DNA of 64,000 nucleotides. Source: Gammaproteobacteria bacterium. GTDB taxonomy: Bacteria; Pseudomonadota; Gammaproteobacteria; SpSt-1174. The stretch's first letter is position 1. Each line of letters starts with the position of its first letter. Shown here piece after piece: positions 1 to 57,708 of this stretch. The stretch spans positions 5,010-69,009 of the forward strand of contig JARRKE010000005.1 of the NCBI GenBank assembly GCA_037388465.1. The letters run 5' to 3'. Below the pieces are notes generated by a model. It did no database searches. It had not been told where the DNA came from and worked only from the letters and a program-made list of their open reading frames with translations. Position numbers and translations under genes: made by a program.

Positions 1-409
1 TCTGACCTGCCGGCGTTTCATGGAGAAACTGCGCCGCCTGCAGCATTCCGCCGGTGACGTCCGTATACGCACTCGGCTTGAGGTGCTTGAAGAACGTGTT
101 CAACTTTTCGCGGAACTCACGCTTTTGCGCATTCGCGACCGAGGGACGGTCGTCGAACGTGGCCTTGGCGACCAGCGCCTTCTCGGTGAAGCTGCCGCTG
201 TCGATGCGTGCCACCACCAGCGTATCGCCGCTGTTCAGGATGCCCAGCAGGTAGTTGATGATCGCATTGGCCTTGTCCAGCTGCTTGCTGTAGGTGCCGG
301 ACGTATCCAGCAGCATGTACACGGCACGGCTGTGGCTGTGATTGACACAGCCCGCCGCACTGAGCGTAACGACAAACAGCAGGACCGTTCGAATCAGCAA
401 ACGCCTCAT
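1..409 (-). CDS. VWA (von Willebrand factor A) domain lipoprotein, N-terminal part only; gene runs past the window start
   Basis: Minus-strand ORF starts at ATG 409..407 and translates MRRLLIRTVLLFVVTLSAAGC (lipobox signal peptide), then LLDTSGTYS (MIDAS-like DxSxS motif). No stop occurs before position 1. The start overlaps the upstream stop as ATGA. Confidence 0.55.
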   Translation of the reverse strand, partial: MRRLLIRTVLLFVVTLSAAGCVNHSHSRAVYMLLDTSGTYSKQLDKANAIINYLLGILNSGDTLVVARIDSGSFTEKALVAKATFDDRPSVANAQKREFREKLNTFFKHLKPSAYTDVTGGMLQAAQFLHETPAGQ

Positions 410-1884
410 GCCGCCTTCTCCGCAGGTTTGGCCGCGGTCTTGGTCTGCGGCGACTCGCTGCCCTTAGTTTCCGAAGAGGACTTGGAGGACCGCCACTCGG
501 ACACGAGGTGCTCCACCGCCAGCGGCAGAAAGATGATCAGGTCGTACAGGTGCGTCAGGCTGTTGCCCAGCGTGCGCATCACGCCCGCCAGGAGATGCAG
601 CACATAGGCCAGTCCGCGCAGCAGGCCGGCCATGACCACCCCCATCACCGTGCGCGAGGCATGGATGAATGACTCCAGCGGGATCGCCACGAAGGTCAGT
701 GCAAACGGCAGCACGAAACCCATCACCATCTGGCCGATGGAGGGAATCCAGCGGAACTGGGCCTGCTGAACGACCGTGCCGCTGGATGCGGCCAGCGACT
801 GGGTCAGCGCCTCGTGATCAGCCGCCAGCATGTCACGCATATAGGCCAGCGCGGACTCGATGCTCGCCATGGCCAGCAGGATGAAAAAGGTCACCCAGAT
901 CATGCGCCGCCGCATGCGGTCGTCCAGAGCGCCGATCACGGGGAACAGACGGGTGATGCGCAGCGACTCCATGAGGAACAGGCCCATGGCGATCTCGACC
1001 ATGATGATGACCAGCGCCGCCACATCCGCGGTGCGTACCGAACCGATGTAACTGGCCCCGCCGACCATCTCGGACATGGGCAGGGCGATCAGCTGGAAAT
1101 TGATCATGCCGCCCATGATGGCGATGACCATCACCACACCGGAAATCAGGAACTGGGTCATCGAGGAAGAGGACAGCGTGCGCACCACCCGGTCGTTGCC
1201 GGAGAGGATCTCCTCGTAGTGCGTCATCTGTTTGTCGATTTCGGTGGCGCGCTCGCCGATGCCCTTGATGGTCTTCTGCACCTCGCGGATGCGTTCGTCG
1301 AGGCGGCGCCAATAGGGCAGCATGCGCTTGAGCAGCTTGTGGCGTTCGCCGCTCGCAATGCGGTACTCGCGCGTGATGTCCTGAGTGGACCGCTTCAGGG
1401 TGTGGTGGATGTCCTGCAGGATCCGCGCGATGGTCGGATCGCCGTCGGTCGGGATCTTCGCCACCGCCTCCACGGCATCCAGCCAGGCCGGCGGTTCGGG
1501 CGGCGTTTCGGCGGTTTCGCGGTAATCCTCGTCGATATGCGTAATCTGCTCGGAGAGCTGGCGATGCAGGGCCGGATAGCTGCTCAGGTCACGGCTCACC
1601 ACGGCGTTGATGCGGTGGAACTCGCGCTCGATGATGCGCTCCTGATTCTCGGCCGCCATGGCCAGCAGCACTTCGCGGTTGCGCCGCCCGAGCCGGGTCT
1701 CGGCCAGCCTGACCGAGTGGGCCGACTTGCGCAGCGCGTTATAGAGGACATGACTCAGGGTGCGGATGAACTCATGAGCCGGACGGCGCGCCAGATACAG
1801 GGCAACCAGCAGAATGACCACCCAGATCGACACTGAGAGCGCCATGGAATGCGACCACAGGCCGAGAATTGTCTCCCAGGTCAT
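406..1884 (-). CDS. Integral membrane protein of unknown function: N-terminal TM, ~200-aa coiled-coil region, ~6 C-terminal TM helices, low-complexity K/S/A tail
   Basis: 492-aa ORF in the track. GC-rich third positions on the minus strand. The hydrophobic segments are seen by eye. No P-loop or other catalytic motif is recognised. Confidence 0.6.
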   Translation of the reverse strand: MTWETILGLWSHSMALSVSIWVVILLVALYLARRPAHEFIRTLSHVLYNALRKSAHSVRLAETRLGRRNREVLLAMAAENQERIIEREFHRINAVVSRDLSSYPALHRQLSEQITHIDEDYRETAETPPEPPAWLDAVEAVAKIPTDGDPTIARILQDIHHTLKRSTQDITREYRIASGERHKLLKRMLPYWRRLDERIREVQKTIKGIGERATEIDKQMTHYEEILSGNDRVVRTLSSSSMTQFLISGVVMVIAIMGGMINFQLIALPMSEMVGGASYIGSVRTADVAALVIIMVEIAMGLFLMESLRITRLFPVIGALDDRMRRRMIWVTFFILLAMASIESALAYMRDMLAADHEALTQSLAASSGTVVQQAQFRWIPSIGQMVMGFVLPFALTFVAIPLESFIHASRTVMGVVMAGLLRGLAYVLHLLAGVMRTLGNSLTHLYDLIIFLPLAVEHLVSEWRSSKSSSETKGSESPQTKTAAKPAEKAA

Positions 1885-2074: not shown

Positions 2075-3409
2075 ATGGACAGCACCCTGATCACCAACGC
2101 ACGCATTGTCACCGACGGACGCCAATTCGAAGGCGACGTCCTGATCGAAGGAGATCGCATCAGCGCCATCGGCGGCGATCTTTCCGCCCGCACCGCGGAC
2201 AGGGTGATCGACGCGGCCGGGCGCCTGCTCATACCGGGCATGATCGACGATCAGGTCCACTTCCGTGAGCCGGGCATGCCCGACAAGGGTGACATCGCCA
2301 CCGACTCCGCCGCTGCGGTGGCCGGCGGCATCACCAGTTTCATGGACATGCCGAACACCCGTCCGAACACCCTCACACAGGAAATACTGGAAGACAAGTA
2401 CGCCCTCGCCGCCGGGCGCGCCCACGCCAACTATGCCTTTTACCTTGGCGCCTCCAACGACAACCTGGAGGACATCAAGCGCCTCGAACCCGGCCGCGCC
2501 TGCGGCATCAAGGTCTTCATGGGCGCCTCCACCGGCAACATGCTGGTCGACAACCCCGACACCCTGGACGGCATCTTCGCGCACGCCCCGACCATGGTCG
2601 TGACCCATTGCGAGGACACCCCCACCATCCTGGCCAACGAGCAGGCATGGCGTGAACGCTACGGCGAGGACGTCCCGTTCGCCGCGCACGGGCAGATCCG
2701 CAGCGTCGAGGCCTGCTACAAATCCTCCTCGCTGGCCGTAGAGCTCGCGCGCAAACACGGCACGCGGCTGCATATCCTGCATCTGTCCACCGGTCGCGAA
2801 CTGGAGCTGTTCTCCACCCAGCCGTTGGCGGAGAAACAGATCACGGCCGAGGCCTGCGTGCATTTCCTGTGGTTCTCGGATGAGGACTATGCGGAAAAAG
2901 GCGCGCTCATCAAATGCAATCCGGCCATCAAGACCGCCGCGGACCGCGCCGCCATTCTGCAGGGCCTAAAGGACGGCCGCCTGGACGTGATCGGTACCGA
3001 TCACGCGCCGCACACCTGGGCCGAGAAACAAAACAGCTACTTCAAGGCGCCTTCCGGCCTGCCGCTGGTGCAGCATGCCCTGCCGGTGCTGCTGGAACTG
3101 CATCGCCGCGGCGACCTGGACCTGGAACTGATCGTGGAAAAGACCAGCCACGCGGTGGCCGAACGCTTCCGGATCGAGGAGCGCGGGTACATCCGCGAGG
3201 GCTACTACGCCGACCTGGCGCTGATCGATCTGGAAAAGCCCTGGACCGTGGAACGCGACAACGTATTGTACAAGTGCGGCTGGTCACCCTTCGAGGGCAC
3301 GACCTTCCACGCGACGATCGACATGACCTGGGTCAATGGCCGGCTTGCCTGGGCCGATGGCAGACTGCAGCCCGGGACGCACGGCCAGCGGCTGAAGTTC
3401 AGCGCCTAA
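2075..3409 (+). CDS. Cyclic amidohydrolase, dihydroorotase-like (PyrC type I-like; metal motif reads DDQVHFREPG)
   Basis: 444 aa. Contains GMIDDQVHFREPG, a conserved K in ACGIKVFMG, and VIGTDHAPH, the amidohydrolase-superfamily signature. No pyr genes are adjacent. Confidence 0.7.
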   Translation: MDSTLITNARIVTDGRQFEGDVLIEGDRISAIGGDLSARTADRVIDAAGRLLIPGMIDDQVHFREPGMPDKGDIATDSAAAVAGGITSFMDMPNTRPNTLTQEILEDKYALAAGRAHANYAFYLGASNDNLEDIKRLEPGRACGIKVFMGASTGNMLVDNPDTLDGIFAHAPTMVVTHCEDTPTILANEQAWRERYGEDVPFAAHGQIRSVEACYKSSSLAVELARKHGTRLHILHLSTGRELELFSTQPLAEKQITAEACVHFLWFSDEDYAEKGALIKCNPAIKTAADRAAILQGLKDGRLDVIGTDHAPHTWAEKQNSYFKAPSGLPLVQHALPVLLELHRRGDLDLELIVEKTSHAVAERFRIEERGYIREGYYADLALIDLEKPWTVERDNVLYKCGWSPFEGTTFHATIDMTWVNGRLAWADGRLQPGTHGQRLKFSA

Positions 3410-3436: not shown

Positions 3437-4510
3437 TCACAGGCGCGTATAGGGCACCACCCGCCCCGGCCCTTCCTGGTGGGCCAGCAGCATGGCCTGG
3501 TCGGCCCGCTGCATCAGCATTTGCCCGATCTCCACCACGTCGGGCAGCTCCTCCGGGTGTTCGCAACTGGCCACGCCCACAGACACGGTGACGTCGACCC
3601 GCTGACCGTTGTGGAGCAGGACGGGCTTGATGGAGACCTGATCGCGGATTCGCTCCGCCACCCCGGTCGCGTCCTCCAGGCCGGCCTCGGGCAGCAGCAC
3701 GACGAACTCGTCCCCGCCGTAACGTGCATACACGTCGAACTTGCGCAGCGGCAGGGCCATGCGCGAAGCGACCGCGCGGATGATATCGTCCCCTGCCCGA
3801 TGCCCATGGCTGCTGTTCAGCGGTTTGAAGTCGTCGATATCGATGAACAGGAAGGAGATGGGATTCTGCTCGCGCTGCGCGGCCAGCACCTCCTCCTGCA
3901 GACGCTGGTCGAAGTAGCGCTGATTGCGGATGCCGGTCAGCGGGTCGGTGATACCGAACTGCTCGAGGCGCATCAGATTGACCGCATTCTCGATGCTGAT
4001 GGCGGCCATGACGGCCAACCGGTCCAGGAAGTACATACCGGCATCTGCGCTGTAACGGTCCGGATCGGTACTCGCGTAGGCCAGCTGACCTACACGTTTG
4101 TCGCCGCGTTTGAGGGGCAGAATCACGACGCTGGCCAGCGCTTCCACGCCGGGGAACAGCGGGCCGTGAATGAGTTCCTCGAAATCGCCCATGTAGGGCT
4201 CGTGTTCCAGCCCAATCTCGGCCTCATCTTGGGAAACCAGGACCACTTCCGGTTGCGGTTCATCGATCTCGCGGTCGAAATGGCGACGCAGTTCGTGATC
4301 ATCGTCGAGGACCGTCAGGCTGGCCGCATCGATACCGAACTCGCGCGGCACGTCGTGGATCAGCAACTCGAACAGGGAGCGGATGTCTGCGGTGGTCAGC
4401 AGGCGGATTTCCAGCGCATGCAGGCGCTCGAGCTTGCCTTCGTTCTCGCGCACCTGCGCCAGCAGCGTATCGAGCTGGCGCTTCAGATCCTGGTCGTTCT
4501 GCTGCTCCAT
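3437..4510 (-). CDS. Diguanylate cyclase with N-terminal DUF484/GAF-like domain (GGDEF intact: RYGGDEFVVLL)
   Basis: 357-aa ORF. DPLTGIRNQRYF, DIDDFKPLNSSHGHRAGD and GGDEF motifs are present. Confidence 0.85.
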   Translation of the reverse strand: MEQQNDQDLKRQLDTLLAQVRENEGKLERLHALEIRLLTTADIRSLFELLIHDVPREFGIDAASLTVLDDDHELRRHFDREIDEPQPEVVLVSQDEAEIGLEHEPYMGDFEELIHGPLFPGVEALASVVILPLKRGDKRVGQLAYASTDPDRYSADAGMYFLDRLAVMAAISIENAVNLMRLEQFGITDPLTGIRNQRYFDQRLQEEVLAAQREQNPISFLFIDIDDFKPLNSSHGHRAGDDIIRAVASRMALPLRKFDVYARYGGDEFVVLLPEAGLEDATGVAERIRDQVSIKPVLLHNGQRVDVTVSVGVASCEHPEELPDVVEIGQMLMQRADQAMLLAHQEGPGRVVPYTRL

Positions 4511-4519
4511 CGCCCTGCC

Positions 4520-5449
4520 TTATTCCGCCAGATCCAGCTCGCGAACCAGCCGCATGCCGAGGTTCACGTCGAGTTCGTCGCGCAACCGGGTCATGCGCGC
4601 CGCACTGCGCGCCTGGGCCGCACTGTCGAAATACGACCCGCCCTTGGTCACGATACGCTGCGTGCCGTGCAGCGGCGCCGGAGCGCCGTCCCGGTTGGCG
4701 TTGATGTGCGAATTGGTCCAGGGATTAACGGTGAACTCCCAGACGTTGCCGTGCATGTCGTGCAACCCCCAGGTATTGGCGGGTTTCTCGCCGACCTCGG
4801 CCGCGCGCTGCAGGGGGAAGCAGCGCGGCAGAAACCAGCGTCGCTTCTGCCTGGCCTCCTCGTAAGGGAAGGTGCTGTTGAAATGCGCCTCCTTGCAGGT
4901 CAGCGATGCCCCGAAATGGAAAGGCGTCAGGCTGCCCGCCCGGCAGGCATACTCCCATTCCGCCTCGGTAGGCAGGCGATAGCGCTGGCCGGTCTGCTCA
5001 CTCAGCCAATCGGCATACAACTGGGCGTCCTTGAGACGGATGTTCATCACCGGTCGGCGTCCGGAAGACCAGATCAGGTCGGAACGGATCACCCAGCCGG
5101 TATCGAGGCGGAAGCGGTCGAATTCCTCCACCGTTACCGTGTAGCGTCCCAACGCAAAGGGCCGGCCCAGGCAGACCGTGTGCTGCGGATGCTCGCTGGA
5201 CTGATGGCCGAACTCGGTGCGTAACGAGCCCATCTCGAACATCCCCGGCGGGATCATCTGCATCCAGGGCCCGGCGGAACCATCCGCCAGGGTGTCCTGG
5301 AACGCCGCGTCGACGCCGGCGCGCTCCGCCGCCACGGCTTGCCACGCCAGCAGGGCCGCCTCGTCCATATCGTGGACATAGGGCAGATCCGGTTCGCAGG
5401 GAACCTTCGATTGTCGTGCTTCCATCATCGACCGCTCAAACCTCGTCAT
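4520..5449 (-). CDS. Formylglycine-generating-enzyme (FGE-sulfatase/SUMF1) family protein
   Basis: 309 aa. Contains LHDMHGNVWEF and RLPTEAEWEYA, characteristic of the FGE fold. It ends 9 nt upstream of the GGDEF gene on the same strand. Confidence 0.85.
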   Translation of the reverse strand: MTRFERSMMEARQSKVPCEPDLPYVHDMDEAALLAWQAVAAERAGVDAAFQDTLADGSAGPWMQMIPPGMFEMGSLRTEFGHQSSEHPQHTVCLGRPFALGRYTVTVEEFDRFRLDTGWVIRSDLIWSSGRRPVMNIRLKDAQLYADWLSEQTGQRYRLPTEAEWEYACRAGSLTPFHFGASLTCKEAHFNSTFPYEEARQKRRWFLPRCFPLQRAAEVGEKPANTWGLHDMHGNVWEFTVNPWTNSHINANRDGAPAPLHGTQRIVTKGGSYFDSAAQARSAARMTRLRDELDVNLGMRLVRELDLAE

Positions 5450-5593
5450 TATCGGGGGCGATCAGGCCGCCACATGTTCGAAAAAGTATACACCGGCCGG
5501 TTCAATCCCACCGGCCGGGTCATCGGGACCCCGTGCGCGAAGATTGGTCTATATTCACTGGGGACCGCAACTTTCAAGCACAGGAGGACGCCC

Positions 5594-5818
5594 ATGAAAG
5601 TGACCCAGGACGAACAGGGGCGCGTACGGATCGAAGTCGACATCGAGACCGGCTTCAAGCTGGCCGACCAGATCCGCGAACATGCAAACGACACCACCAA
5701 CGGCTGCCTCGCCCTGGCCAGCCTGCTGCACGAGGCGTACTACAACGCCAAAAACGATTTCCGCCAACCCCCGCACGCCTTTGACGAAAAAGCGCCGAAG
5801 GCACCCAGCGCCAGCTAA
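5594..5818 (+). CDS. Small acidic hypothetical protein (~74 aa), paralogue A
   Basis: The ATG is preceded by GGAGGACGCCC (Shine-Dalgarno sequence). It aligns with the following ORF (DEQGRVRIEV..LA..E vs EDGKNVVINA..LA..E). Confidence 0.5.
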   Translation: MKVTQDEQGRVRIEVDIETGFKLADQIREHANDTTNGCLALASLLHEAYYNAKNDFRQPPHAFDEKAPKAPSAS

Positions 5819-5835: not shown

Positions 5836-6042
5836 ATGAACATCGAACGCGAAGACGGCAAGAATGTGGTCATCAACGCGTCGGAAGGTACCGCAAGCGA
5901 CCTGCTGGCCGGCCTGGAAGCGCACCGCGAGGAATTCGGAGAGCTTGGCGCCCAACTGGCCCGCATGCTGCGTGACGCCGGCATCCATCCGCCTGCGGAA
6001 CCCGATCACGTCCGATACGAGTACATGCCACCCGCACATTGA
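5836..6042 (+). CDS. Small acidic hypothetical protein (68 aa), paralogue B
   Basis: The ATG is preceded by GGAGGAGAACATCC. It lies 17 nt after paralogue A. Confidence 0.5.
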   Translation: MNIEREDGKNVVINASEGTASDLLAGLEAHREEFGELGAQLARMLRDAGIHPPAEPDHVRYEYMPPAH

Positions 6043-6171: not shown

Positions 6172-6558
6172 ATGAAACGGATTCTAAATATAACTCACCC
6201 TGCACGGATGAAACCGATGTCTGCAACGTCCATCAATACCCTGCTGGAAAACTGGCACAACCGCAGCGAACGCGAGAAATTCAGCCATGAGTACACCGTG
6301 CGGCTCACGGCCCATGAGCAGGCCAAGATCGCCGCACTGGCCGAGATGTTTCCGGGGATGGACGAAGCGCAGATCGTGCGGGACCTGATCGCCTCCGCAC
6401 TCACCGAACTGGAAGCCGGCATGCCCTACGTGGCCGGCAACCGGGTCATCAGCGAGGACGAACAGGGCGATCCGATCTACGAGGATGCCGGCCTGACGCC
6501 CCGCTTCCTCGAACTGACCCGCAAGCACCTGCAGGACATCGAGGAACGCAAGGACTGA
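6172..6558 (+). CDS. Hypothetical protein with ribbon-helix-helix-like segment (YTVRLTAHEQAKIAALAEM); start uncertain (alternative ATG 6217)
   Basis: 128-aa ORF after the terminator. There is no partner gene; SulP sits on the opposite strand downstream. Confidence 0.45.
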   Translation: MKRILNITHPARMKPMSATSINTLLENWHNRSEREKFSHEYTVRLTAHEQAKIAALAEMFPGMDEAQIVRDLIASALTELEAGMPYVAGNRVISEDEQGDPIYEDAGLTPRFLELTRKHLQDIEERKD

Positions 6559-30321: not shown

Positions 30322-33309
30322 TTGGACAACCTCAGGATGAACTTCCAGCCCGAAACAATGGACGACGTCAGTCAGGTCATCGAGGATCGCGCCTACTTAA
30401 AGAGCATCGTTGACACTGTTGGTGTCGGAGTTCTGATCCTCGATGAATCGAAAGAGTTCATCTACGCCAACCTAACCCTGCGCAGCTGGCTGAGCCGCTC
30501 CCTGGAAGAGCTGCGCACGCTGCCTACGAGTGCCTACCATCGGCAAAGCCCGGCAGCGAATACCACGCAGATTCACAACACCATCATCGACTCAGGACGC
30601 TGGGAAGGCGATGTCTGTCTGATTTCCGCCGACCAGGAAGAAATCCCCTGCCGCCTTGTGGCCCATAAGGTACAAACCCAGCTCGACGGACGCCGGACCC
30701 TGGTCGGGGTCTATACCGACCTGCGCGAACTCAAGCGCTCCCGGGAACGCGAAAACCTGTTGGTGGACATCATCCAGGAGCTGTCCACCCGCACCGACCT
30801 GGAAGGGGTCGCCCGGCGCGCCCTGTTTCGCGCCGCGGAACTGACCGGCGGCAACGGCGGCGGTATTGCGCTCAAGGATGACGAACAACCCACCCTGAGC
30901 TACCGCTGGACGACTCACGAACACGCGGAGGGCCATCCGGAACATCGCTTCGACAAACCCTTTCCTGCCGACCAGGGGTTGGCCGGCATCGCCTTCCGCA
31001 CCGGCCGCGCCCAGATCGCCAACCATTATCCCGACAGCCCGTTCGCCAATCCGTATTTCGTCGCCACCGGCATACGCAGCCTGATCGTGGTGCCGATCCT
31101 GGACAAGACCCAGCCGCTGGGCGCACTGAGCATCGTCAGCTTCACCAACGACGAAGCCTTTGGCGAAGATCAGATTCCGCTGCTCGAATCCATTGCCCGC
31201 CAGCTCAGCGAGGCGTTGCAGTTCCAGCGCCTGCTGGACAGCGCACGCAGTTCCGAAGCCCGCCTGCGCGGCGTCATCGAGGCCGTCCCCGGCGTCATCT
31301 ACACCACCCCGCTGCCCGACCTCAACCCGCACTATTACAGCTCGCGCGCCTACGACCTGTACGGCATCGACGTGCAGGAAATGAATACCGATTCGCAAAG
31401 CTGGATCGAACGGGTTCATCCCGACGACCGGGACAAATACCTGGACCGGATCCGCAAGGCGATTGACGGCGCCACCAATGAGTTCCTGATGGAATACCGT
31501 ATCTGGAACAAAACCCGTCGCGAATGGGTGTGGCTGCGCAACCATGCCTACATCGAACACGACGCAGATGGACGCGCGGTTTTCGCCACCGGGTTCATCC
31601 AGGACGTCACCGACCGCGCTCTGGCCGAACAGGCCCTGCGCGAGGCGGAACATTTCACCCGCCTCGCCCTCGACAGCATGTACGACCTGTTCTACGTCAT
31701 CGGCCTGGACGGACGCTTGCTGCGCTGGAACCGCACCTTCAGCACCCGTACCGGCTATACGGACCAGGAAATCTCCCGCATGCTGCCGACCGATTTCTTC
31801 AACGAAACGCACAAGACCTCCATCGAGACCGCGATCAAGGAAACCATCGTCACCGGCAGCGCATCCATCGTCCTCCCGCTTTATACCCGCGACGGCCAGG
31901 AAATCATGCACGAATTCCACGCCGTGGTGCTGCGCGACACCAACGGCAACGCCATCGGCCTGGTCGGCACCGGCCGCGACATCACGCGTCAGCTCGAAGA
32001 CGAGGCCCAGCTGCAGTACATCGCCCAGCACGATCCGCTGACCGGCCTGCCCAACCGCCTGCTGCTCAGCGACCGCGTCGCCCACGCCATCAAGCGTGCG
32101 CGCCGCGACGACACCATGCTCGCCCTGCTGTTCCTGGACCTGGATCGCTTCAAGGAGATCAACGACACGCTGGGACACGCCTGTGGCGACCAGCTGCTCA
32201 AGAGCGTGACCGAGCGCATCTGCGACACCCTGCGCGAGGACGATTCCGTCGCCCGACTCGGCGGGGACGAATTCATCATTCTGCTCGAGGGTCTGCACGC
32301 GATCGACGATGCCGAGGACATGGCAGAACGCCTCCTCACCTCGATCGAACAGCCCCTGCAACTCGATGATACGCAGCTGGTCGTCACCGCCAGCATCGGC
32401 ATCAGCTTCTTTCCGAAGCACGGCACGGATTTCGACGACCTGCTCAAACACGCCGACACCGCCATGTACGCCGCCAAGGAATCAGGCCGCAACAGCGTGC
32501 ACACCTACACCAAGGAGCTCAGCCTCAAAGCGCGTCACCGTTTCGACCTGGAGCACGCGCTGCGCGCCGCGATCGAAAACGAGGATTTCCATCTCCACTT
32601 CCAGCCCAAGATCGATGCCGCGAGCGGGCGCTGCGTAGGCGCCGAAGCGCTGCTGCGCTGGCTGCACCCCGAGGAAGGCAATATTCCGCCGGACCGTTTC
32701 ATTCCGGTCGCGGAAACCACCGGGCTGATCATTCCGCTGGGCGAATGGGTGATACGCACCGCCTGCCGTTCCGTTTTCGAATTCAACCAGGCGGGCTTTC
32801 CGGATCTGACGCTGTCGCTCAATCTGTCCGGGCGGCAATTCGTCCAGCGCGATCTGCAGCAACGCATTCTCGACCAGATCGTCACGGCAGACATCTGCGC
32901 CGCCAGCATCGAGCTGGAATTGACCGAGAGCTTTCTGATGACCCATCCCCAGGCGCGCGCCATGCTGTTGTCACTGCACGAGGCAGGCATCCGGCTCGCC
33001 ATCGACGACTTCGGCACCGGCTACTCCTCCCTGAGCCAGCTGAAGCTCTTCCCGGTTTCCACCCTCAAGATCGACCAGTCGTTCGTACACGACGTGGTCA
33101 CGGACCCCAACGACGCCGCCATCACCAGCGCCATCATCGCCATGGGCCACAGCCTCGACATGACGGTCTGCGCCGAAGGCGTGGAAACGCAATCGCAATT
33201 GGAATTCGTGCGCGAACAGGGCTGCGACACCGTCCAGGGATACCTGTTCGCCCCGGCCATGCCCAAGGACGAGTTCCTCGCCTGGGCCAGGGGCCATCAA
33301 AGGGATTAA
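30322..33309 (+). CDS. PAS-GAF-PAS-PAS-GGDEF-EAL signalling protein
   Basis: 995 aa. Contains RLGGDEFIILL, EALLRW, DDFGTGYSSL and KIDQSFV. Confidence 0.9.
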   Translation: MDNLRMNFQPETMDDVSQVIEDRAYLKSIVDTVGVGVLILDESKEFIYANLTLRSWLSRSLEELRTLPTSAYHRQSPAANTTQIHNTIIDSGRWEGDVCLISADQEEIPCRLVAHKVQTQLDGRRTLVGVYTDLRELKRSRERENLLVDIIQELSTRTDLEGVARRALFRAAELTGGNGGGIALKDDEQPTLSYRWTTHEHAEGHPEHRFDKPFPADQGLAGIAFRTGRAQIANHYPDSPFANPYFVATGIRSLIVVPILDKTQPLGALSIVSFTNDEAFGEDQIPLLESIARQLSEALQFQRLLDSARSSEARLRGVIEAVPGVIYTTPLPDLNPHYYSSRAYDLYGIDVQEMNTDSQSWIERVHPDDRDKYLDRIRKAIDGATNEFLMEYRIWNKTRREWVWLRNHAYIEHDADGRAVFATGFIQDVTDRALAEQALREAEHFTRLALDSMYDLFYVIGLDGRLLRWNRTFSTRTGYTDQEISRMLPTDFFNETHKTSIETAIKETIVTGSASIVLPLYTRDGQEIMHEFHAVVLRDTNGNAIGLVGTGRDITRQLEDEAQLQYIAQHDPLTGLPNRLLLSDRVAHAIKRARRDDTMLALLFLDLDRFKEINDTLGHACGDQLLKSVTERICDTLREDDSVARLGGDEFIILLEGLHAIDDAEDMAERLLTSIEQPLQLDDTQLVVTASIGISFFPKHGTDFDDLLKHADTAMYAAKESGRNSVHTYTKELSLKARHRFDLEHALRAAIENEDFHLHFQPKIDAASGRCVGAEALLRWLHPEEGNIPPDRFIPVAETTGLIIPLGEWVIRTACRSVFEFNQAGFPDLTLSLNLSGRQFVQRDLQQRILDQIVTADICAASIELELTESFLMTHPQARAMLLSLHEAGIRLAIDDFGTGYSSLSQLKLFPVSTLKIDQSFVHDVVTDPNDAAITSAIIAMGHSLDMTVCAEGVETQSQLEFVREQGCDTVQGYLFAPAMPKDEFLAWARGHQRD

Positions 33310-43412: not shown

Positions 43413-44585
43413 ATGCCTGACACCAGGACCGAGACGGTCAACGCACGCCTGCCGGACGATCTGAACAACCTGGCCGGCAGCGTCGCCCCGCAGGTCACGG
43501 ATGCTTTCAGGCTGCGCGTTCTGCGCCTGCTGCTGGCCATTTCCAGCATTGCGATTGCGACCATCTGGTATCTGGAAACGCAAAGCGGATTGATCGGCGC
43601 GATCGACCGCGTGGCTTACCCCGTCCTGCTGGTGACCGACGGCCTGGGCACCCTGCTGCTCTTTCTGCGCCCGCAGCTGCTGCAACGCATCGTCGCAACG
43701 ATCTTTACCACTTTTATCCTGTATCTGCTGGCCAACTACTATTACCTCTTCATCTACCAGACGGTCACCGGCCACACCTCCAACTATCAACTGGCGACAC
43801 TGGCCCTGTGGCTGCCGCTCGGCTATCTCGCCGCCTTTATCTTCTTTTCCCCACGCACCGCGGGACTGACCTCTCTCGGCATCTTCGCCGCCTTCTGCCT
43901 GCCGCAACTGGCCATCCTGAGCCGTATCGAACCGCTGATTGCCCACGACATGATCATCAACATGCTGCTGTCGCATGTGGTGTACATCACAGCCTTATGG
44001 GGCGTGGCGCAGATCAAGTCCCACGCCGCGGGCGTGCACAATATCGCTCAGACCATGCGTCTGGCGGCAACCCAGGATTCCCTGACCGGCGTTCCCAACC
44101 GGCGCGTCATGCGCCAGGCACTCGAGGCCGTAATCGCCGACCCGCTCAACCATGTTCAGCCCGTTTCCCTCTTGCTGTTCGACGTGGACCGGTTCAAGAA
44201 CATCAACGACACCCATGGTCATGATGTCGGCGACGAGGTCCTGGTCCGCATCGCCCACTTCGTCCAGCGACAATTGCGCACCACGGACCTGCTGGCCCGC
44301 TGGGGCGGCGAGGAGTTCATTATTCTCGTGCCGGGACAGTCGGAGGAGCAGGCCAGGCAGACGGCCGAACGCCTGCGCGCCGGTCTGGCGGACATAGAAC
44401 ACCCTCACGTCGGCACCGTCACCGCCAGCGTCGGCTTCACGCGTTTCGTCCCGGGCGAAAGCGTTTCCGCCTTCGTGAAACGCGCCGACGGCGCCCTGTA
44501 CCAGGCCAAGCGTCTGGGCCGGAACCGTGTCGAAGGGCAGCTGCCCTCGCAGCCGGCGACCGACACCTCCACTTCGGGGAAATAG
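43413..44585 (+). CDS. Membrane-anchored diguanylate cyclase (5-6 TM + GGDEF; motif GGEEF)
   Basis: RWGGEEFIILVPG and DRFKNINDTHGHDVGD. Confidence 0.85.
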   Translation: MPDTRTETVNARLPDDLNNLAGSVAPQVTDAFRLRVLRLLLAISSIAIATIWYLETQSGLIGAIDRVAYPVLLVTDGLGTLLLFLRPQLLQRIVATIFTTFILYLLANYYYLFIYQTVTGHTSNYQLATLALWLPLGYLAAFIFFSPRTAGLTSLGIFAAFCLPQLAILSRIEPLIAHDMIINMLLSHVVYITALWGVAQIKSHAAGVHNIAQTMRLAATQDSLTGVPNRRVMRQALEAVIADPLNHVQPVSLLLFDVDRFKNINDTHGHDVGDEVLVRIAHFVQRQLRTTDLLARWGGEEFIILVPGQSEEQARQTAERLRAGLADIEHPHVGTVTASVGFTRFVPGESVSAFVKRADGALYQAKRLGRNRVEGQLPSQPATDTSTSGK

Positions 44586-54509: not shown

Positions 54510-56861
54510 TTAAGCCTCGAGGCGGATGCGGTCGATGAGCAGATTGACCAGTTTGTTGCGGGCACGTACGAACTCGCGCCGTTCCAGCCCCCGGCGCGCC
54601 AGCGCCGTCAGGTTCCGGTGCGCCCGTTCCAACGGCTGGCCCGCGAGCCCGACCGCCTCGATGTAGTGCATCGCCGGACAGGGCATCTCGAGCAGGCGTT
54701 CCAGGGCATCCGGGTCACGTATGCTGGCGGTGATCTGCTCGTTGAAGAGCATGTATGAGGCCAGTGTTCCCAGGGCCGTGGCCGGCTGCATCGGCTCCAG
54801 GCTGAGCTGGAACCCGCCGACCCAGCCCGGCACCTCCTGCGGCGGCATGGGCGGCGAAATGGCATGACCCTGCCCGTGCCCTGCGCCCAGCATGGCGGCG
54901 GCCTCGACCAGGCCCTGGTTCTCCAGGCCTTCCACCACCACGACCTTGCCCATGTCCTCGGCCAGCCGCGTCAGGTGGCGGATAAAGACAAGGGTGCGCA
55001 AGGCGTCATCGGGACCGCGGCGCACCAAGGCCTGGTCGATCTTGACCCAGTCGAAGGGAAGCTGGTCCAGACGCAGCAGGCTGCTGTGGCCGGAACCCAG
55101 GTCGTCTTCCGCAAGCTGCACGCCCAGCGCCTTGAAGCCGGCAATCGCGCGGTCGCGCGCCTGCTCGTCCTCGATCTCGCCCGACTCCAGCACCTCCAGC
55201 AACAGCCGGTCCGGGGCCAGGCTGGTGCGTGCCAGCGCATGTTCGACCAATCCGATGTAACGCGAATCCATCAAGCCCTGCGACGGCAGATTAAGGGACA
55301 CCTTGAGCTCCAGCCCCTCCCGGTCCCATTCCAGGAGATGCCGAAGCGCCTGGTTCAAGCCCAGATCGAACAGGCGGCGCATGTCCTCGTTGGTAAAGGT
55401 CGGCAGAAACCGGTCGGGCAGAATCAGCTCGCCCGTTCCGTCGCGCAGCCTCGCCAGCGACTCCATACTCACCGGCCGGCCGGTACGCAGATCGATGACC
55501 GGCTGGTAGTACATGATCAGCCCGCCGTCTTCCAGAAGGCTGCGCCACTGGCGGCGAATCTGGTAAGGCAGCGGCGCGGCTGCCTCCGCTTTCGGATCGA
55601 GACGCAGCAGGGCCAGGCCGAGCACATGGCGCAGATGGCGCAGCATGGCTTTGTGCGCACGCGAGGAAAATCCGCCGGCATAGGACGAATACAGCGTCAG
55701 CACCACATGGGCGACGCCCTCGGGCGGAGCGAGCGGAATGGCGACGTTCGATCGCACGCCGAGCCTGGCGGCGGTGCTCCGCCAGGGCTCCATACGGGGA
55801 TCGCTGGCATAGTTGACCGTACGTTCGATCTGTCCGCTGCGCCAGGCACGCCCGGTCGGTCCCTGCCCCTGGGGATGGGAGGGATCGGTCACGATGGTCC
55901 GGGCCTTGCCCGCACTCACCTCATCGAGGTAGGCCTTGAAGGTGTCCCCGGCGACGAACTCGAACTGGAATTGAGGTCCCTCACCGGGGCGGCCGATGGT
56001 AGCGGCCACCACCTCGTCCAGCCCGGCAAGGGCATCGACCACGCCCTGTGCCAGGTCGGCGAAGCTTTGTGCCCGCCAGGCCAAGGCGTCGAGACGCCGC
56101 AGCACGTCCTGGCGGCCTTCTTCGATCGTTTCGAAACCGGACAGCTGAGCCTGCAGATCCATCCCCACCCGATGGCTCAGCACCGCATGGGCCAGACCGG
56201 CGTGCACCAGTCTCGACTGCACCATGTTGGTCCACTGACTGTAGGCGTCGATCAGCCAGGTCGGCTCGATACCGGCCATGGCGTGAACCCGCCCGACGCG
56301 GGCGGCGGTCGCATGATGGGTTGCCGCATCGAGATGGGGGTCGATCAATAAGCGGAAATGATTGGCCAGTGCCTGCTGCAAACCTTCCCGATTGTCGGGG
56401 GTCAGGCTCGCGAGCACCTGACCGGCGCCTGAACTGCCGGCAAGCTGCTCGTCGAAAAACCGTTCGACGAAACTGCTGACCAGGGATTCGAGCGACGCAT
56501 GCAAGGGCTCCAGCAACCGGCATGCATCAGGGCCGTAACCGGGCTGCCCGTCTGTGTCGCCGAGCAGCTGTTCCGAACCGTCGGTGCCGGGATCGAAAGG
56601 ACGCCGCGCGTCGAACATGCCCCACCAGCGATCGCGCAGGCCCTTGGACGACTTGACCCGGTACAGTGCCTGGTCGGCCGCGCGCAGCAGGATGCCCGAC
56701 GCCTGCTCGGTGCAATCAATGCACAGCGGATAGATCACCACCCCGAGGCTCGCGCCGACCTGCACCTCGCCGACCTCATCCAGGGCGATCGGAACGGTGA
56801 TTGATTGACGAATGCGTTCCAGCGTCATCTCGAAGTCGTCGAGATCCTCGATATCCTCCAT
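54510..56861 (-). CDS. 3' fragment of an interrupted c-di-GMP gene: tail of GGDEF (GDEFVILMEDIEDLDDF...ADQALYRVK), sensor-globin-like domain, GAF-like domain, EAL domain and C-terminal extension
   Basis: Globin-sensor motif RVGRVHAMAGIEPTWLIDAY. EAL motifs YYQPVIDLRTG, DDLGSGHSSL and KIDQALV. Confidence 0.7.
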   Translation of the reverse strand: MEDIEDLDDFEMTLERIRQSITVPIALDEVGEVQVGASLGVVIYPLCIDCTEQASGILLRAADQALYRVKSSKGLRDRWWGMFDARRPFDPGTDGSEQLLGDTDGQPGYGPDACRLLEPLHASLESLVSSFVERFFDEQLAGSSGAGQVLASLTPDNREGLQQALANHFRLLIDPHLDAATHHATAARVGRVHAMAGIEPTWLIDAYSQWTNMVQSRLVHAGLAHAVLSHRVGMDLQAQLSGFETIEEGRQDVLRRLDALAWRAQSFADLAQGVVDALAGLDEVVAATIGRPGEGPQFQFEFVAGDTFKAYLDEVSAGKARTIVTDPSHPQGQGPTGRAWRSGQIERTVNYASDPRMEPWRSTAARLGVRSNVAIPLAPPEGVAHVVLTLYSSYAGGFSSRAHKAMLRHLRHVLGLALLRLDPKAEAAAPLPYQIRRQWRSLLEDGGLIMYYQPVIDLRTGRPVSMESLARLRDGTGELILPDRFLPTFTNEDMRRLFDLGLNQALRHLLEWDREGLELKVSLNLPSQGLMDSRYIGLVEHALARTSLAPDRLLLEVLESGEIEDEQARDRAIAGFKALGVQLAEDDLGSGHSSLLRLDQLPFDWVKIDQALVRRGPDDALRTLVFIRHLTRLAEDMGKVVVVEGLENQGLVEAAAMLGAGHGQGHAISPPMPPQEVPGWVGGFQLSLEPMQPATALGTLASYMLFNEQITASIRDPDALERLLEMPCPAMHYIEAVGLAGQPLERAHRNLTALARRGLERREFVRARNKLVNLLIDRIRLEA

Positions 56862-56874
56862 CAGGATGACGAAC

Positions 56875-57708
56875 TCATCCCCTTTCCCTCACGGCGGCCT
56901 TGAGTCGCTGGGCAACCGCACTGAGCACCTGATCGCCGACGGCGTGTCCGAAGCGATCATTGACCGGCTTGAAATCATCCAGGTCCAGCAGACCCACCGC
57001 GAGCAAACGCTCGTTACGATTGGCGCGTGCCAGCGCTTCCTCGATGTGCTGATCCAACGCCGTGCGATTGGGCAACCCGGTCAGGGGATCGCGCAGCGCC
57101 TGCCTGGCCAGATGGCGGCGCTCCGCCGCCACGGCGGCCTCGCGCGACAGGGCGGTGGCCAGCAGATTGGCGAATTCCTCCAGCTGGGCCTGGGTATGCT
57201 GCCGGCCGAACATTCCCGGAACACGGCTGTAGAGGGAGAGGAGCTGGGTCCGGTCGCCGACCCGCAGCGGCAACGCCGCACTGGAACGCCAGCCGAACTG
57301 CTCGATCCAAGGCGACCAGGGACCGGGCGCCGACCCGTCCTTCCAGTCGGCGACGTACTGCGGCGTGCCGGTCTGCACGGCGCGTCCACCAGGGCCGCGG
57401 GCCCAGGGACTGTCGTCCCAGCGCAGCGGCACATTGGCCACGTAGGCGGCCATATCCTCATCGCTGGCGTGTTCGAACAGGATGCTGCCGTCCGTCCGGG
57501 CGGCGCCCAGCCAGAATCCCTCCACCCCCCAGTCCTGCAGCAGCGGCTCCAGGCCCACCAGCAAATCGCGCGTCGACAGCGCCTGGGCGAGCAGGAAACT
57601 GAGGCGATAAAAGAAGTCGCGTTTTTCCGGACTATCGCTATCTGAAGATTCGGTAATCAAGACAGCACCCTCTGAACGGCCCCATACTACAGGCCGACCA
57701 TGACGCAA
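56875..57708 (-). CDS. 5' fragment of the same gene: GAF-like domain + first half of GGDEF (DPLTGLPNR...DDFKPVNDRFGHAVGD), ending RERG*
   Basis: The stop TGA at 56877..56875 falls exactly where GGDEF should follow. The motif continues in another frame. Confidence 0.7.
   Translation of the reverse strand: MRHGRPVVWGRSEGAVLITESSDSDSPEKRDFFYRLSFLLAQALSTRDLLVGLEPLLQDWGVEGFWLGAARTDGSILFEHASDEDMAAYVANVPLRWDDSPWARGPGGRAVQTGTPQYVADWKDGSAPGPWSPWIEQFGWRSSAALPLRVGDRTQLLSLYSRVPGMFGRQHTQAQLEEFANLLATALSREAAVAAERRHLARQALRDPLTGLPNRTALDQHIEEALARANRNERLLAVGLLDLDDFKPVNDRFGHAVGDQVLSAVAQRLKAAVRERG

What the first reader, a model, noticed from the sequence alone, without database searches (positions are those of the whole stretch)
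3437..5449. FGE-sulfatase-family protein in an operon with a DUF484-GGDEF diguanylate cyclase
The FGE-fold protein (LHDMHGNVWEF motif) ends 9 nt before a GAF/DUF484-GGDEF cyclase on the same strand. No sulfatase, EgtD-like methyltransferase or Ser/Thr kinase, the usual partners, is present. An FGE-like domain tied to c-di-GMP synthesis suggests a sensory, ligand- or metal-binding role for the FGE fold rather than Cys-to-fGly maturation.
Basis: partly seen in the sequence, partly recalled or inferred. Interest (0 to 1): 0.5.

Follow-up and report, generated by a model that had tools for sequence, protein, structure and literature searches.

The report
Cysteine-less FGE-like gene beside a cyclase
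A cytoplasmic protein with the fold of the sulfatase-maturing enzyme FGE, but lacking its catalytic cysteines, is co-transcribed with a c-di-GMP cyclase gene; the pairing recurs in some related bacteria but is missing from most, so it is a modest lead, not a new signalling system.

Summary
Two minus-strand genes sit 9 nt apart: a 309-aa FGE-sulfatase-fold protein (4520-5449) and a 357-aa DUF484/GAF-GGDEF protein (3437-4510).

The FGE-like protein is not a formylglycine-generating enzyme. Both copper-binding cysteines are replaced (Cys336 by an invariant Asp, Cys341 by Ala). It has no DinB domain, so it is not EgtB. It has no export signal and scores far below the PvdO cut-off, although PvdO is its closest solved relative.

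It belongs to a large, well conserved family of ~300-aa proteins (52-65% identity). The most constant neighbour of that family is a divergently transcribed ~60-70-aa protein, seen in 9 of 13 sampled loci. A cyclase is less constant.

- A DUF484-GGDEF gene lies directly downstream in 4 of 13 orthologous loci, one of them with different flanking genes.
- A 46%-identical Thiobacillus relative is coupled to a different cyclase (CZB-GGDEF).
- Eight loci have no cyclase, and two more distant DUF484-GGDEF homologs have no FGE-like neighbour.
- The window is rich in c-di-GMP genes, so some adjacency is expected by chance.
- The window's own cyclase has lost a conserved Lys and Arg.

A functional link is plausible but unproven. 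Interest is modest.

The parts
4520..5449 (-). Gene for a cytoplasmic, cysteine-less FGE-fold protein, PvdO-like (309 aa; NCBI starts it at Met8, coordinate 5428, giving 302 aa)
   Evidence: PF03781 E=1e-43. Best NCBIfam match is PvdO at 141 bits against a cut-off of 500. Best solved structure is PvdO 5hha by sequence and by fold. Human FGE Cys336 aligns with invariant Asp275, Cys341 with Ala and Cys346 with Ser. No hydrophobic N-terminus.
4511..4519 (-). 9-nt spacer (GGCAGGGCG) between the two genes; the second gene is in the same reading frame as the first
   Evidence: Read directly. No terminator-like site lies between the genes. Spacers in relatives are 12, 10, at most 9, and 3 nt.
3437..4510 (-). 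Gene for a DUF484/GAF-GGDEF protein (357 aa), a predicted diguanylate cyclase whose activity is uncertain
   Evidence: Pfam GGDEF and DUF484; TIGR00254 153 bits. RYGGDEF and the RxxD I-site (RKFD) are intact. Positions conserved in at least 90% of the family are changed: D233S, K344H, R348P.
3989..4501 (-). DUF484 (GAF-like) putative sensor domain, residues 4-174
   Evidence: PF04340 35.3 bits; GAF_2 and GAF_3 matches below their cut-offs over the same residues.
3470..3949 (-). GGDEF domain, residues 188-347
   Evidence: PF00990 E=1.6e-39; alignment A2.
5450..5593 (.). Divergent intergenic region. It contains a GC-rich hairpin with a T-tract at 5518-5493 on the minus strand, in the leader of the FGE-like gene
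   Evidence: Terminator-like hit. No Rfam match. The leader is not conserved in relatives.
5594..5818 (+). Small protein A (74 aa), a paralog of B, found only in the window's closest clade
   Evidence: 67-70% identical copies at the same position in L088 and L172. Aligns with B. No Pfam, NCBIfam or PADLOC match.
5836..6042 (+). Small protein B (68 aa; motif LLxGL...LGxLG...LLxxAGIRP), the most constant neighbour of the FGE-like family. That it is a functional partner is an inference
   Evidence: Divergent and upstream of the FGE-like gene in 9 of 13 orthologous loci. The A4 profile (A and B together) found 76 homologs, all unnamed or hypothetical, including B homolog Tgr7_0716 of Thioalkalivibrio sulfidiphilus.
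6172..6558 (+). Protein C (128 aa), conserved next to B in the window, L088, L172 and L090. It may be a small DNA-binding protein, judged from the sequence pattern only and not tested
   Evidence: tblastn 49-59% identity. Only a CUE-domain match that I consider spurious.

Best explanation
This is a two-gene operon. The first gene encodes a soluble cytoplasmic protein with the FGE (C-type-lectin-like) fold. It cannot make formylglycine, because it lacks the copper-binding cysteine pair. It is neither EgtB nor a true PvdO. It belongs to a large, strongly conserved family of unknown function whose usual neighbour is a small, divergently transcribed protein (B). In one gammaproteobacterial lineage, related to Thioalkalivibrio, a DUF484(GAF-like)-GGDEF gene lies directly downstream with a spacer of 12 nt or less. 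The two proteins are therefore made from one transcript, probably in coupled amounts. My preferred mechanism, which is inferred and not shown, is that the FGE-like protein acts as an accessory input to the cyclase. It could bind the DUF484 domain directly, or it could bind or convert a small molecule that this domain senses, so that c-di-GMP output follows the state of the FGE-like protein. The fold, the missing catalytic residues, the tight spacing and the partial conservation of the pair are shown. Co-transcription is inferred. Physical or metabolic coupling is inferred. The window's own cyclase may be weak or inactive.
For: Domain identities. Missing cysteines and absent DinB domain. Fold closest to PvdO and then FGE. 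Cytoplasmic location. Spacer of 9 nt with no terminator between the genes. The same pair occurs in L088 and L172 (syntenic with the window: PepN, SulP, C, B, A) and in L175, which has different flanks (UbiH-like genes upstream, FHA genes downstream). The four FGE-linked cyclases group together in a tree, with weak support. An independent coupling to a CZB-GGDEF cyclase 3 nt downstream occurs in a 46%-identical Thiobacillus relative. In L090 a kinase, response regulator, GAF-GGDEF-EAL and MshEN-ATPase cluster follows the FGE-like gene. Among about 155 loci of distant FGE-domain paralogs none has an adjacent GGDEF gene. Published precedent exists for non-catalytic, protein-binding FGE-fold proteins.
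Against: Eight of 13 orthologous loci have no cyclase. In Thiothrix the FGE-like gene lies directly against the ortholog (65% identity) of the dihydroorotase-like gene that follows the cyclase in the window, so the cyclase is dispensable to the family. The two DUF484-GGDEF homologs looked up (39% and 33% identity) are not next to an FGE-like gene. The window carries 4-5 c-di-GMP genes among about 49 genes. By my rough estimate about one chance adjacency would be expected in 13 loci. The four DUF484-GGDEF cases may trace to one ancestral event, since both trees are unresolved. The cyclase already has its own sensor-type domain. The window's cyclase has lost conserved Lys344 and Arg348. No interaction or ligand has been tested.
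Confidence: 0.4

Rival explanations
1. Neighbours without a shared function. A cyclase gene, one of many in these genomes, landed downstream of a conserved, probably steadily expressed gene and stayed there in one lineage. The two proteins share a promoter but do not act on each other.
For: Most family members lack the cyclase, and two cyclase homologs lack the FGE-like gene. c-di-GMP genes are dense in the window. In Thiothrix the FGE-like gene and the dihydroorotase-like gene are direct neighbours. The cyclase evolves much faster than the FGE-like protein (38-43% against 55-63% identity in the same genome pairs), and the window's copy has lost conserved residues.
Against: The pair keeps a spacer of 12 nt or less in lineages whose flanking genes differ. 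A second cyclase architecture is coupled in Thiobacillus, and another c-di-GMP cluster follows the gene in L090. Distant FGE paralogs show no such neighbours.
Confidence: 0.35
2. The working unit is the FGE-like protein plus the small proteins B and A. The FGE-like protein could be an enzyme that modifies them or a binder that sequesters them. The cyclase would be a lineage-specific add-on that reads out or is co-regulated with that unit.
For: B is divergently upstream in 9 of 13 orthologous loci, more often than any other gene. A is a paralog of B. True FGE acts on peptide substrates and Tsi3 acts by binding a protein. The family has its own invariant residues (C185, C210, H233, H248, D275) and high overall conservation, which suits an enzyme or a specific binder.
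Against: B has no conserved Cys or Ser-x-Pro-x-Arg-like motif and only two invariant residues. Divergent orientation is more typical of a regulator and its target than of an enzyme and its substrate. B was not detected in L083, L086, L092 or L002. The family-specific segments of the model have low confidence.
Confidence: 0.2
3. It is a canonical member of a characterised family: a true formylglycine-generating enzyme, an EgtB/OvoA sulfoxide synthase, or PvdO.
For: PF03781 match. PvdO is the best hit in NCBIfam, by PDB sequence and by PDB fold. The public annotation reads 'formylglycine-generating enzyme family protein'.
Against: The Cu-binding cysteines are replaced across the whole family. 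No sulfatase signature was found in 64 kb. There is no DinB domain, and EgtB, OvoA and SenA score 41-53 bits against cut-offs of 360-420. PvdO scores 141 bits against a cut-off of 500. There is no export signal, whereas PvdO is periplasmic and always occurs with PvdP. No pyoverdine genes were found in the window.
Confidence: 0.03

Closest known systems
PvdO (Pseudomonas; PDB 5HHA), putative dihydropyoverdine oxidoreductase
   Same: Same fold and a single-domain protein of about 290 aa. It is the best match by sequence (profile E=5e-49) and by structure (Foldseek E=1.5e-17, TM 0.61/0.71). It also lacks the FGE cysteine pair.
   Different: PvdO is periplasmic, sits in the pvdMNO operon and always co-occurs with PvdP (PMC6206403). 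The window protein has no signal peptide, no pyoverdine context, scores 141 against 500 on the PvdO equivalog model, and carries a family-specific insertion with invariant C185 and C210 where PvdO has a gap.
Formylglycine-generating enzyme (SUMF1; bacterial FGEs such as PDB 6MUJ and 6S07)
   Same: PF03781 fold. The GN(V/A)WE(W/F) region is conserved, including the Trp and Glu that align with human Trp299 and Glu300, and so is the GGS motif before the active site.
   Different: Both copper-binding cysteines are absent (replaced by Asp275 and Ala), the Cys346 disulphide partner is Ser, and no sulfatase is nearby.
Non-catalytic FGE-fold binders: Tsi3 T6SS immunity proteins, FGS domains of conflict systems and DGR variable proteins, FGE-type sensors of STAND NTPases
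   Same: An FGE fold without catalytic cysteines, proposed or shown to work by binding a partner (bioRxiv 10.1101/2021.05.21.445229; PMC7159879; PMC13581612). This is the precedent for a binding or sensing role.
   Different: No T6SS, vWA/MoxR, STAND or reverse-transcriptase genes were seen nearby and there are no PADLOC hits. The C-terminal region is nearly invariant across the family, whereas DGR variable regions are hypervariable. The protein stands alone and is not fused to another domain.
Two-gene operons of an accessory sensor protein and a diguanylate cyclase, such as H-NOX with its partner cyclase (from my own knowledge; not tested here)
   Same: A small soluble non-cyclase protein encoded immediately upstream of, and probably co-translated with, a GGDEF protein.
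   Different: Here the accessory protein has an FGE fold, no ligand is known, the pairing is present in only a minority of family members, and no interaction has been shown.
DgcZ-type CZB-GGDEF cyclases and DUF484 (YigA-family) proteins
   Same: The Thiobacillus partner has CZB and GGDEF domains. The window's partner has the DUF484 domain found in YigA-like proteins.
   Different: DUF484 has no established ligand or function. I found no paper that mentions DUF484 together with GGDEF.

Membership tests
Formylglycine-generating enzyme (SUMF1/FGE) | FGE-sulfatase fold (PF03781) | tested here: met
   150 bits against a cut-off of 23.3; fold search hits FGE structures at E around 1e-11.
Formylglycine-generating enzyme (SUMF1/FGE) | Pair of active-site cysteines that bind Cu(I) (human Cys336 and Cys341) | tested here: not met
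   Profile and pairwise alignments place invariant Asp275 and an Ala at these positions. All 25 aligned family members lack the cysteines.
Formylglycine-generating enzyme (SUMF1/FGE) | A sulfatase substrate gene with a C/S-x-P-x-R motif nearby | tested here: not met
   No PROSITE-type sulfatase signature in any ORF of at least 100 aa in the 64 kb. No sulfatase among the 36 genes scanned with Pfam. The rest of the genome was not available.
EgtB / OvoA / SenA sulfoxide synthases | N-terminal DinB_2 domain that contributes to the active site | tested here: not met
   Only about 60 residues precede the FGE domain and no DinB match was found. EgtB scores 53 bits against 360, OvoA 41 against 400 and SenA 42 against 420, all matching only the C-terminal part of the models.
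PvdO | Score above the NCBIfam equivalog cut-off (NF051459, 500 bits) | tested here: not met
   140.9 bits; 153 bits for L175 and 111 bits for L002.
PvdO | Periplasmic location, and co-occurrence with PvdP and pyoverdine genes | tested here: not met
   No hydrophobic N-terminus in the window protein, and none reaching membrane-protein hydropathy values in the other 24 family members. No pyoverdine genes in the window. The requirement is taken from PMC6206403.
DGR variable protein / FGS effector | Hypervariable C-terminal region; reverse transcriptase and template repeat nearby | tested here: not met
   The C-terminal 40 residues are the most conserved part of the family. No reverse transcriptase among the scanned genes. 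No explicit search for a template repeat was run.
Tsi3-type T6SS immunity protein | Encoded beside a vgrG/tse3 effector module | tested here: not met
   No T6SS genes in the window or in the orthologous neighbourhoods.
GGDEF-domain protein | GGDEF domain with a GG(D/E)EF motif | tested here: met
   PF00990 135.7 bits and TIGR00254 153 bits; the motif is RYGGDEF.
GGDEF-domain protein | Allosteric I-site (RxxD five residues before the GGDEF motif) | tested here: met
   RKFD; R256 and D259 are invariant in alignment A2.
Catalytically competent diguanylate cyclase | Conserved Lys and Arg of the C-terminal A-K-x-x-G-R-N motif. By my recollection these are the phosphate-binding PleD Lys442 and Arg446 | tested here: not met
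   The window has AHQEGPGR where 13 homologs have AKxxGRN(R/K/Q/C); the near-invariant D233 is Ser. The relatives L088, L172 and L175 keep Lys and Arg. The functional consequence was not tested.
DUF484 (PF04340) | Pfam gathering score | tested here: met
   35.3 bits against a cut-off of 24.2, residues 4-174.
Accessory-sensor plus cyclase operon | Adjacency conserved across lineages | tested here: inconclusive
   Present in 4 of 13 orthologous loci, plus a CZB-GGDEF case at 46% identity and one nearby c-di-GMP cluster. Eight loci are without one. Both trees are unresolved.
Accessory-sensor plus cyclase operon | Physical interaction with, or control of, the cyclase by the accessory protein | not testable with these tools
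   No complex prediction or experiment was available.

The most novel reading that the evidence does not exclude
The conserved, cytoplasmic, cysteine-less FGE-fold family, with its small partner protein B, is a previously unrecognised sensing or small-molecule-processing module. Its invariant Cys185/Cys210/His/Asp275 set might form a metal or redox site. In several lineages this module would feed directly into c-di-GMP signalling by docking onto cyclases with different sensor domains (DUF484 or CZB). That would make the FGE fold a new class of input device for second-messenger signalling.
Probability: 0.15. Interest if true: 0.6.

Novelty: new variant of a known kind. Interest (0 to 1): 0.35.

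Why it matters
If the link is real, it would assign a first function to a large uncharacterised branch of the FGE/PvdO superfamily found in sulfur-oxidising and related Gammaproteobacteria. It would also add a new kind of accessory input to c-di-GMP cyclases, whose natural signals are mostly unknown. The family is present in a cultured organism, Thioalkalivibrio sulfidiphilus HL-EbGr7, where the protein B homolog is Tgr7_0716, so the question can be tested experimentally. If the link is not real, the finding reduces to a mis-named 'formylglycine-generating enzyme' next to one of many cyclase genes. That would matter mainly as a caution for annotation.

Tried and rejected
They served only as a negative control and yielded L002, L092 and L093.

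2. I checked for a c-di-GMP or other riboswitch in the leader. There was no Rfam match at E of 1 or less, and the leader, including the hairpin at 5493-5518, is not conserved in relatives.

3. The annotated plasmid collection holds only paralogs below 40% identity.

4. A known defence system was ruled out by the absence of PADLOC hits. NCBIfam and Pfam give nothing for proteins A and B, and only a CUE-domain match that I consider spurious for C.

5. The canonical FGE, EgtB and PvdO readings were rejected on defining features.

6. Trees of the FGE-like proteins and of the cyclases were meant to count independent gains, but the deep nodes have bootstrap values below 50, so they cannot decide.

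7. I could not map PvdO's reported essential glutamate onto the family, because the primary paper is not held.

8. Literature searches for FGE-sulfatase with diguanylate cyclase, DUF484 with GGDEF, and the Tgr7_0713-0717 locus tags found nothing relevant.

9. I did not attempt a complex prediction. The tool takes single chains and reports no interface measure.

10. Composition gives no sign that the cyclase gene is foreign, since GC3 is the same for both genes.
Full report
**1. What is in the sequence.**
Two minus-strand ORFs occupy exactly the stated coordinates.
- ORF 4520-5449 (309 aa) matches PF03781 FGE-sulfatase over residues 63-303 (E=1e-43) and contains LHDMHGNVWEF.
- ORF 3437-4510 (357 aa) has a GGDEF domain at residues 188-347 (E=1.6e-39). 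Residues 4-174 match DUF484 above its Pfam cut-off and GAF_2/GAF_3 below theirs.
- The stop codon TAA is followed by GGCAGGGCG and then ATG, a 9-nt spacer. No terminator-like site lies between the genes.
- Both genes have GC3 of 0.82-0.83, like their neighbours.
- The operon is bounded downstream by a convergent dihydroorotase-like gene (2075-3409, +). Upstream lies a 144-nt divergent region followed by three small plus-strand genes, then SulP and PepN on the minus strand.
- The exact proteins are in public databases as MEJ2059182.1 ('formylglycine-generating enzyme family protein') and MEJ2059181.1 ('DUF484 family protein'), from a Gammaproteobacteria metagenome-assembled genome.

**2. The FGE-like protein is not a known enzyme of the superfamily.**
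- In pairwise and profile alignments to human FGE, Cys336 aligns with Asp275, Cys341 with an alanine, and the disulphide Cys346 with Ser282.
- In an alignment of 25 family members this stretch reads GGS(W/Y)FD..A..(A/S)R(S/A)AAR, with Asp275 invariant and no cysteine anywhere in it. Two active-site cysteines coordinating copper are required for FGE activity (as summarised in bioRxiv 10.1101/2021.05.21.445229). A Cys-to-formylglycine function is therefore excluded.
- No sulfatase signature occurs in the 64 kb.
- EgtB-type enzymes need an N-terminal DinB_2 domain. Here only about 60 residues precede the FGE domain, and the EgtB, OvoA and SenA models score 41-53 bits against cut-offs of 360-420.
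- PvdO is the nearest characterised relative: NCBIfam 141 bits, PDB profile E=5e-49, Foldseek E=1.5e-17 on a model with pTM 0.80. The score is far below the 500-bit equivalog cut-off.
- PvdO is periplasmic and always accompanies PvdP (PMC6206403). This protein has no hydrophobic N-terminus, and none of the 24 aligned relatives reaches the hydropathy of the neighbouring membrane proteins. No pyoverdine genes are present.
- The family has its own invariant residues (C185, C210, H233, H248, D275 and a run of arginines), partly in an insertion that PvdO lacks. These segments are the low-confidence parts of the model, so I cannot say whether they form a site.

**3. The family and its real constant neighbour.**
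The search returned thousands of relatives. The best 120 are all about 280-330 aa and 52-65% identical, from Gammaproteobacteria such as Thiothrix and Leucothrix and from many unnamed metagenome bins. That degree of conservation points to a constrained function of its own.

In 13 distinct orthologous neighbourhoods of at least 50% identity, counting the window, the flanking genes are otherwise variable. Examples are Dus, AMP-binding, minor pilins, dGTPase and TfoX.

One element recurs. A gene for a 58-72-aa protein (B; motif LLxGL...LGxLG...LLxxAGIRP) is transcribed divergently just upstream in 9 of the 13.
- The window's closest clade has a paralogous second copy, A.
- A third small protein (C) is shared by the window, L088, L172 and L090.
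- A and B have no match in Pfam, NCBIfam or PADLOC.
- The A4 profile (A and B together) found 76 homologs, all unnamed or 'hypothetical'. One B homolog is Tgr7_0716 of Thioalkalivibrio sulfidiphilus HL-EbGr7, and the A-type homologs include other Thioalkalivibrio proteins.

**4. Is the pairing with a cyclase conserved?**
Only partly.

*For a link:*
- A DUF484-GGDEF gene lies directly downstream in the window, L088, L172 and L175, with spacers of 9, 12, 10 and at most 9 nt.
- L088 and L172 share the window's synteny (PepN, SulP, C, B, A). L175 has different genes on both sides, so the pair has survived rearrangement of its surroundings.
- A 46%-identical Thiobacillus relative (L002) is followed after 3 nt by a cyclase with a different sensor, CZB-GGDEF.
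- In L090 the gene is followed by a histidine kinase, a response regulator, a GAF-GGDEF-EAL protein and an MshEN-type ATPase.
- Among about 155 loci of distant FGE-domain paralogs (30-43% identity), none has an adjacent GGDEF gene.

*Against a link:*
- Eight of the 13 orthologous loci have no cyclase.
- In Thiothrix the FGE-like gene abuts the ortholog (65% identity) of the very dihydroorotase-like gene that follows the cyclase in the window. The cyclase was either inserted in one lineage or cleanly lost in the other.
- From the cyclase side, the two DUF484-GGDEF homologs I could look up (39% and 33% identity) sit in unrelated contexts.
- The window has 4-5 c-di-GMP turnover genes among about 49 genes. 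By my rough estimate about one chance adjacency would be expected in 13 loci.
- The four DUF484-GGDEF cases may go back to one event. They cluster in the cyclase tree with only 30% bootstrap support, and the FGE tree is star-like.
- My loci were picked for contig length and clade spread and were not a random sample.

The fair reading is two, perhaps three, independent associations plus retention of one tight pair. That is suggestive but not significant.

**5. The cyclase itself.**
The GGDEF motif (RYGGDEF) and the RxxD inhibitory site are intact, and both I-site residues are invariant in the family.

The window's copy differs from 13 homologs at positions that are at least 90% conserved. D233 is Ser, and the C-terminal A-K-x-x-G-R-N motif reads A-H-Q-E-G-P-G. 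By my recollection of the PleD structures these Lys and Arg residues contact the GTP phosphates, so this copy may be a poor enzyme or mainly a c-di-GMP binder. L088, L172 and L175 keep both residues.

The cyclase evolves faster than its partner: 38-43% identity against 55-63% for the FGE-like protein in the same genome pairs.

**6. Mechanism.**
- *Shown:* the fold, the loss of the FGE and EgtB catalytic features, cytoplasmic location, tight spacing, and partial conservation of the pair.
- *Inferred:* co-transcription and coupled translation.
- *Further inferred, my preferred reading (confidence about 0.4):* the FGE-like protein acts as an accessory input to the cyclase. It would do so either by binding the DUF484 domain or by binding or converting a molecule which that domain senses.

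Published work already shows FGE-fold proteins acting by binding and not by catalysis. Examples are Tsi3 immunity proteins, FGS domains of conflict systems and diversity-generating retroelements, and FGE-type sensors of STAND NTPases.

The main rival (about 0.35) is mere co-location in genomes crowded with cyclase genes. A third reading (about 0.2) puts the functional unit in the FGE-like protein plus small proteins B and A, with the cyclase as an add-on.

**7. Comparison, novelty and verdict.**
Each gene belongs to a known superfamily. The FGE-like protein is an uncharacterised, cysteine-less, cytoplasmic branch nearest PvdO. I found no paper linking FGE-sulfatase domains or DUF484 with diguanylate cyclases.

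The sensory role is unproven, the adjacency is facultative, and the general idea of a non-catalytic FGE fold is not new.

I rate it a new variant of a known kind, with interest 0.35. It is a reasonable lead that a neighbourhood census and a few binding assays could settle.

Noticed in passing
window 5594-5818 (+), 5836-6042 (+), 6172-6558 (+); also L088 4917-5831, L172 3864-4827, L090 4880-5519, L081 5678-5869, L084 5685-5867, L091 3146-3322, L173 4617-4793, L175 4693-4893: Three small unannotated proteins are transcribed divergently from the FGE-like gene. B (58-72 aa) accompanies the FGE-like family in 9 of 13 loci, more constantly than the cyclase does. A is a paralog of B limited to the window's clade. 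C (103-128 aa) is shared by four loci. All homologs are labelled hypothetical, including Tgr7_0716 of Thioalkalivibrio sulfidiphilus.
   Followed up: partly
window 3437-4510 (-), residues 233, 344, 348-349: The window's cyclase has Ser, His, Pro and Gly where its own family has near-invariant Asp, Lys, Arg and Asn (AHQEGPGR against AKxxGRNR). The GGDEF motif and I-site are intact. It may be weakly active or degenerate. The closest relatives keep the conserved residues.
   Followed up: partly
window 5493-5518 (- strand): A 9-bp GC-rich hairpin followed by a T-rich tract lies about 45 nt upstream of the FGE-like start codon, in the divergent intergenic region. It has no Rfam match and is not conserved in relatives.
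   Followed up: partly
window 54510-57708 (-): A 277-aa GAF protein ends inside its GGDEF domain (model positions 1-73 of 161). The next ORF on the same strand (783 aa) has protoglobin-like, GAF and EAL matches. This looks like one globin/GAF-coupled GGDEF-EAL gene that has been split by a frameshift, an assembly error or decay.
   Followed up: no
window 30322-33309 (+), 43413-44585 (+), 54510-57708 (-): c-di-GMP genes are unusually dense. Besides the finding there is a GAF-PAS-PAS-GGDEF-EAL protein (995 aa), a 390-aa GGDEF protein whose N-terminus has no Pfam match, and the split GGDEF/EAL pair. That makes 4-5 among about 49 genes, which raises the chance of accidental adjacency.
   Followed up: partly
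L084 1-5424 and L086 150-1495; L090 6719-12572: In the Thiothrix locus L084, and in L086 (labelled Aquificaceae by NCBI), the FGE-like gene is divergent from a type IV pilus minor-pilin operon (PilW, Tt1218-like, ComP-like). In L090 it precedes a kinase, response regulator, GGDEF-EAL and STAS-MshEN-ATPase cluster. This is a possible pilus and c-di-GMP theme around the family.
   Followed up: no
window 2075-3409 (+) and L084 6907-8244 (-): The dihydroorotase-like gene downstream of the cyclase is 65% identical to the gene that lies directly convergent with the FGE-like gene in Thiothrix. The cyclase gene therefore occupies a position between two genes that are adjacent in L084.
   Followed up: yes
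window 4508-4522 (-); L088 6898-6915: The cyclase ORF is in the same reading frame as the FGE-like ORF (a stop codon plus 9 nt in the window, plus 12 nt in L088), so stop-codon readthrough would give a fusion protein. In L172 the spacer is 10 nt, so this is probably coincidence.
   Followed up: partly
window 406-1884 (-): A 492-aa predicted membrane protein (strongly hydrophobic segments) with no significant Pfam, NCBIfam or PADLOC match lies just beyond the dihydroorotase-like gene.
   Followed up: no
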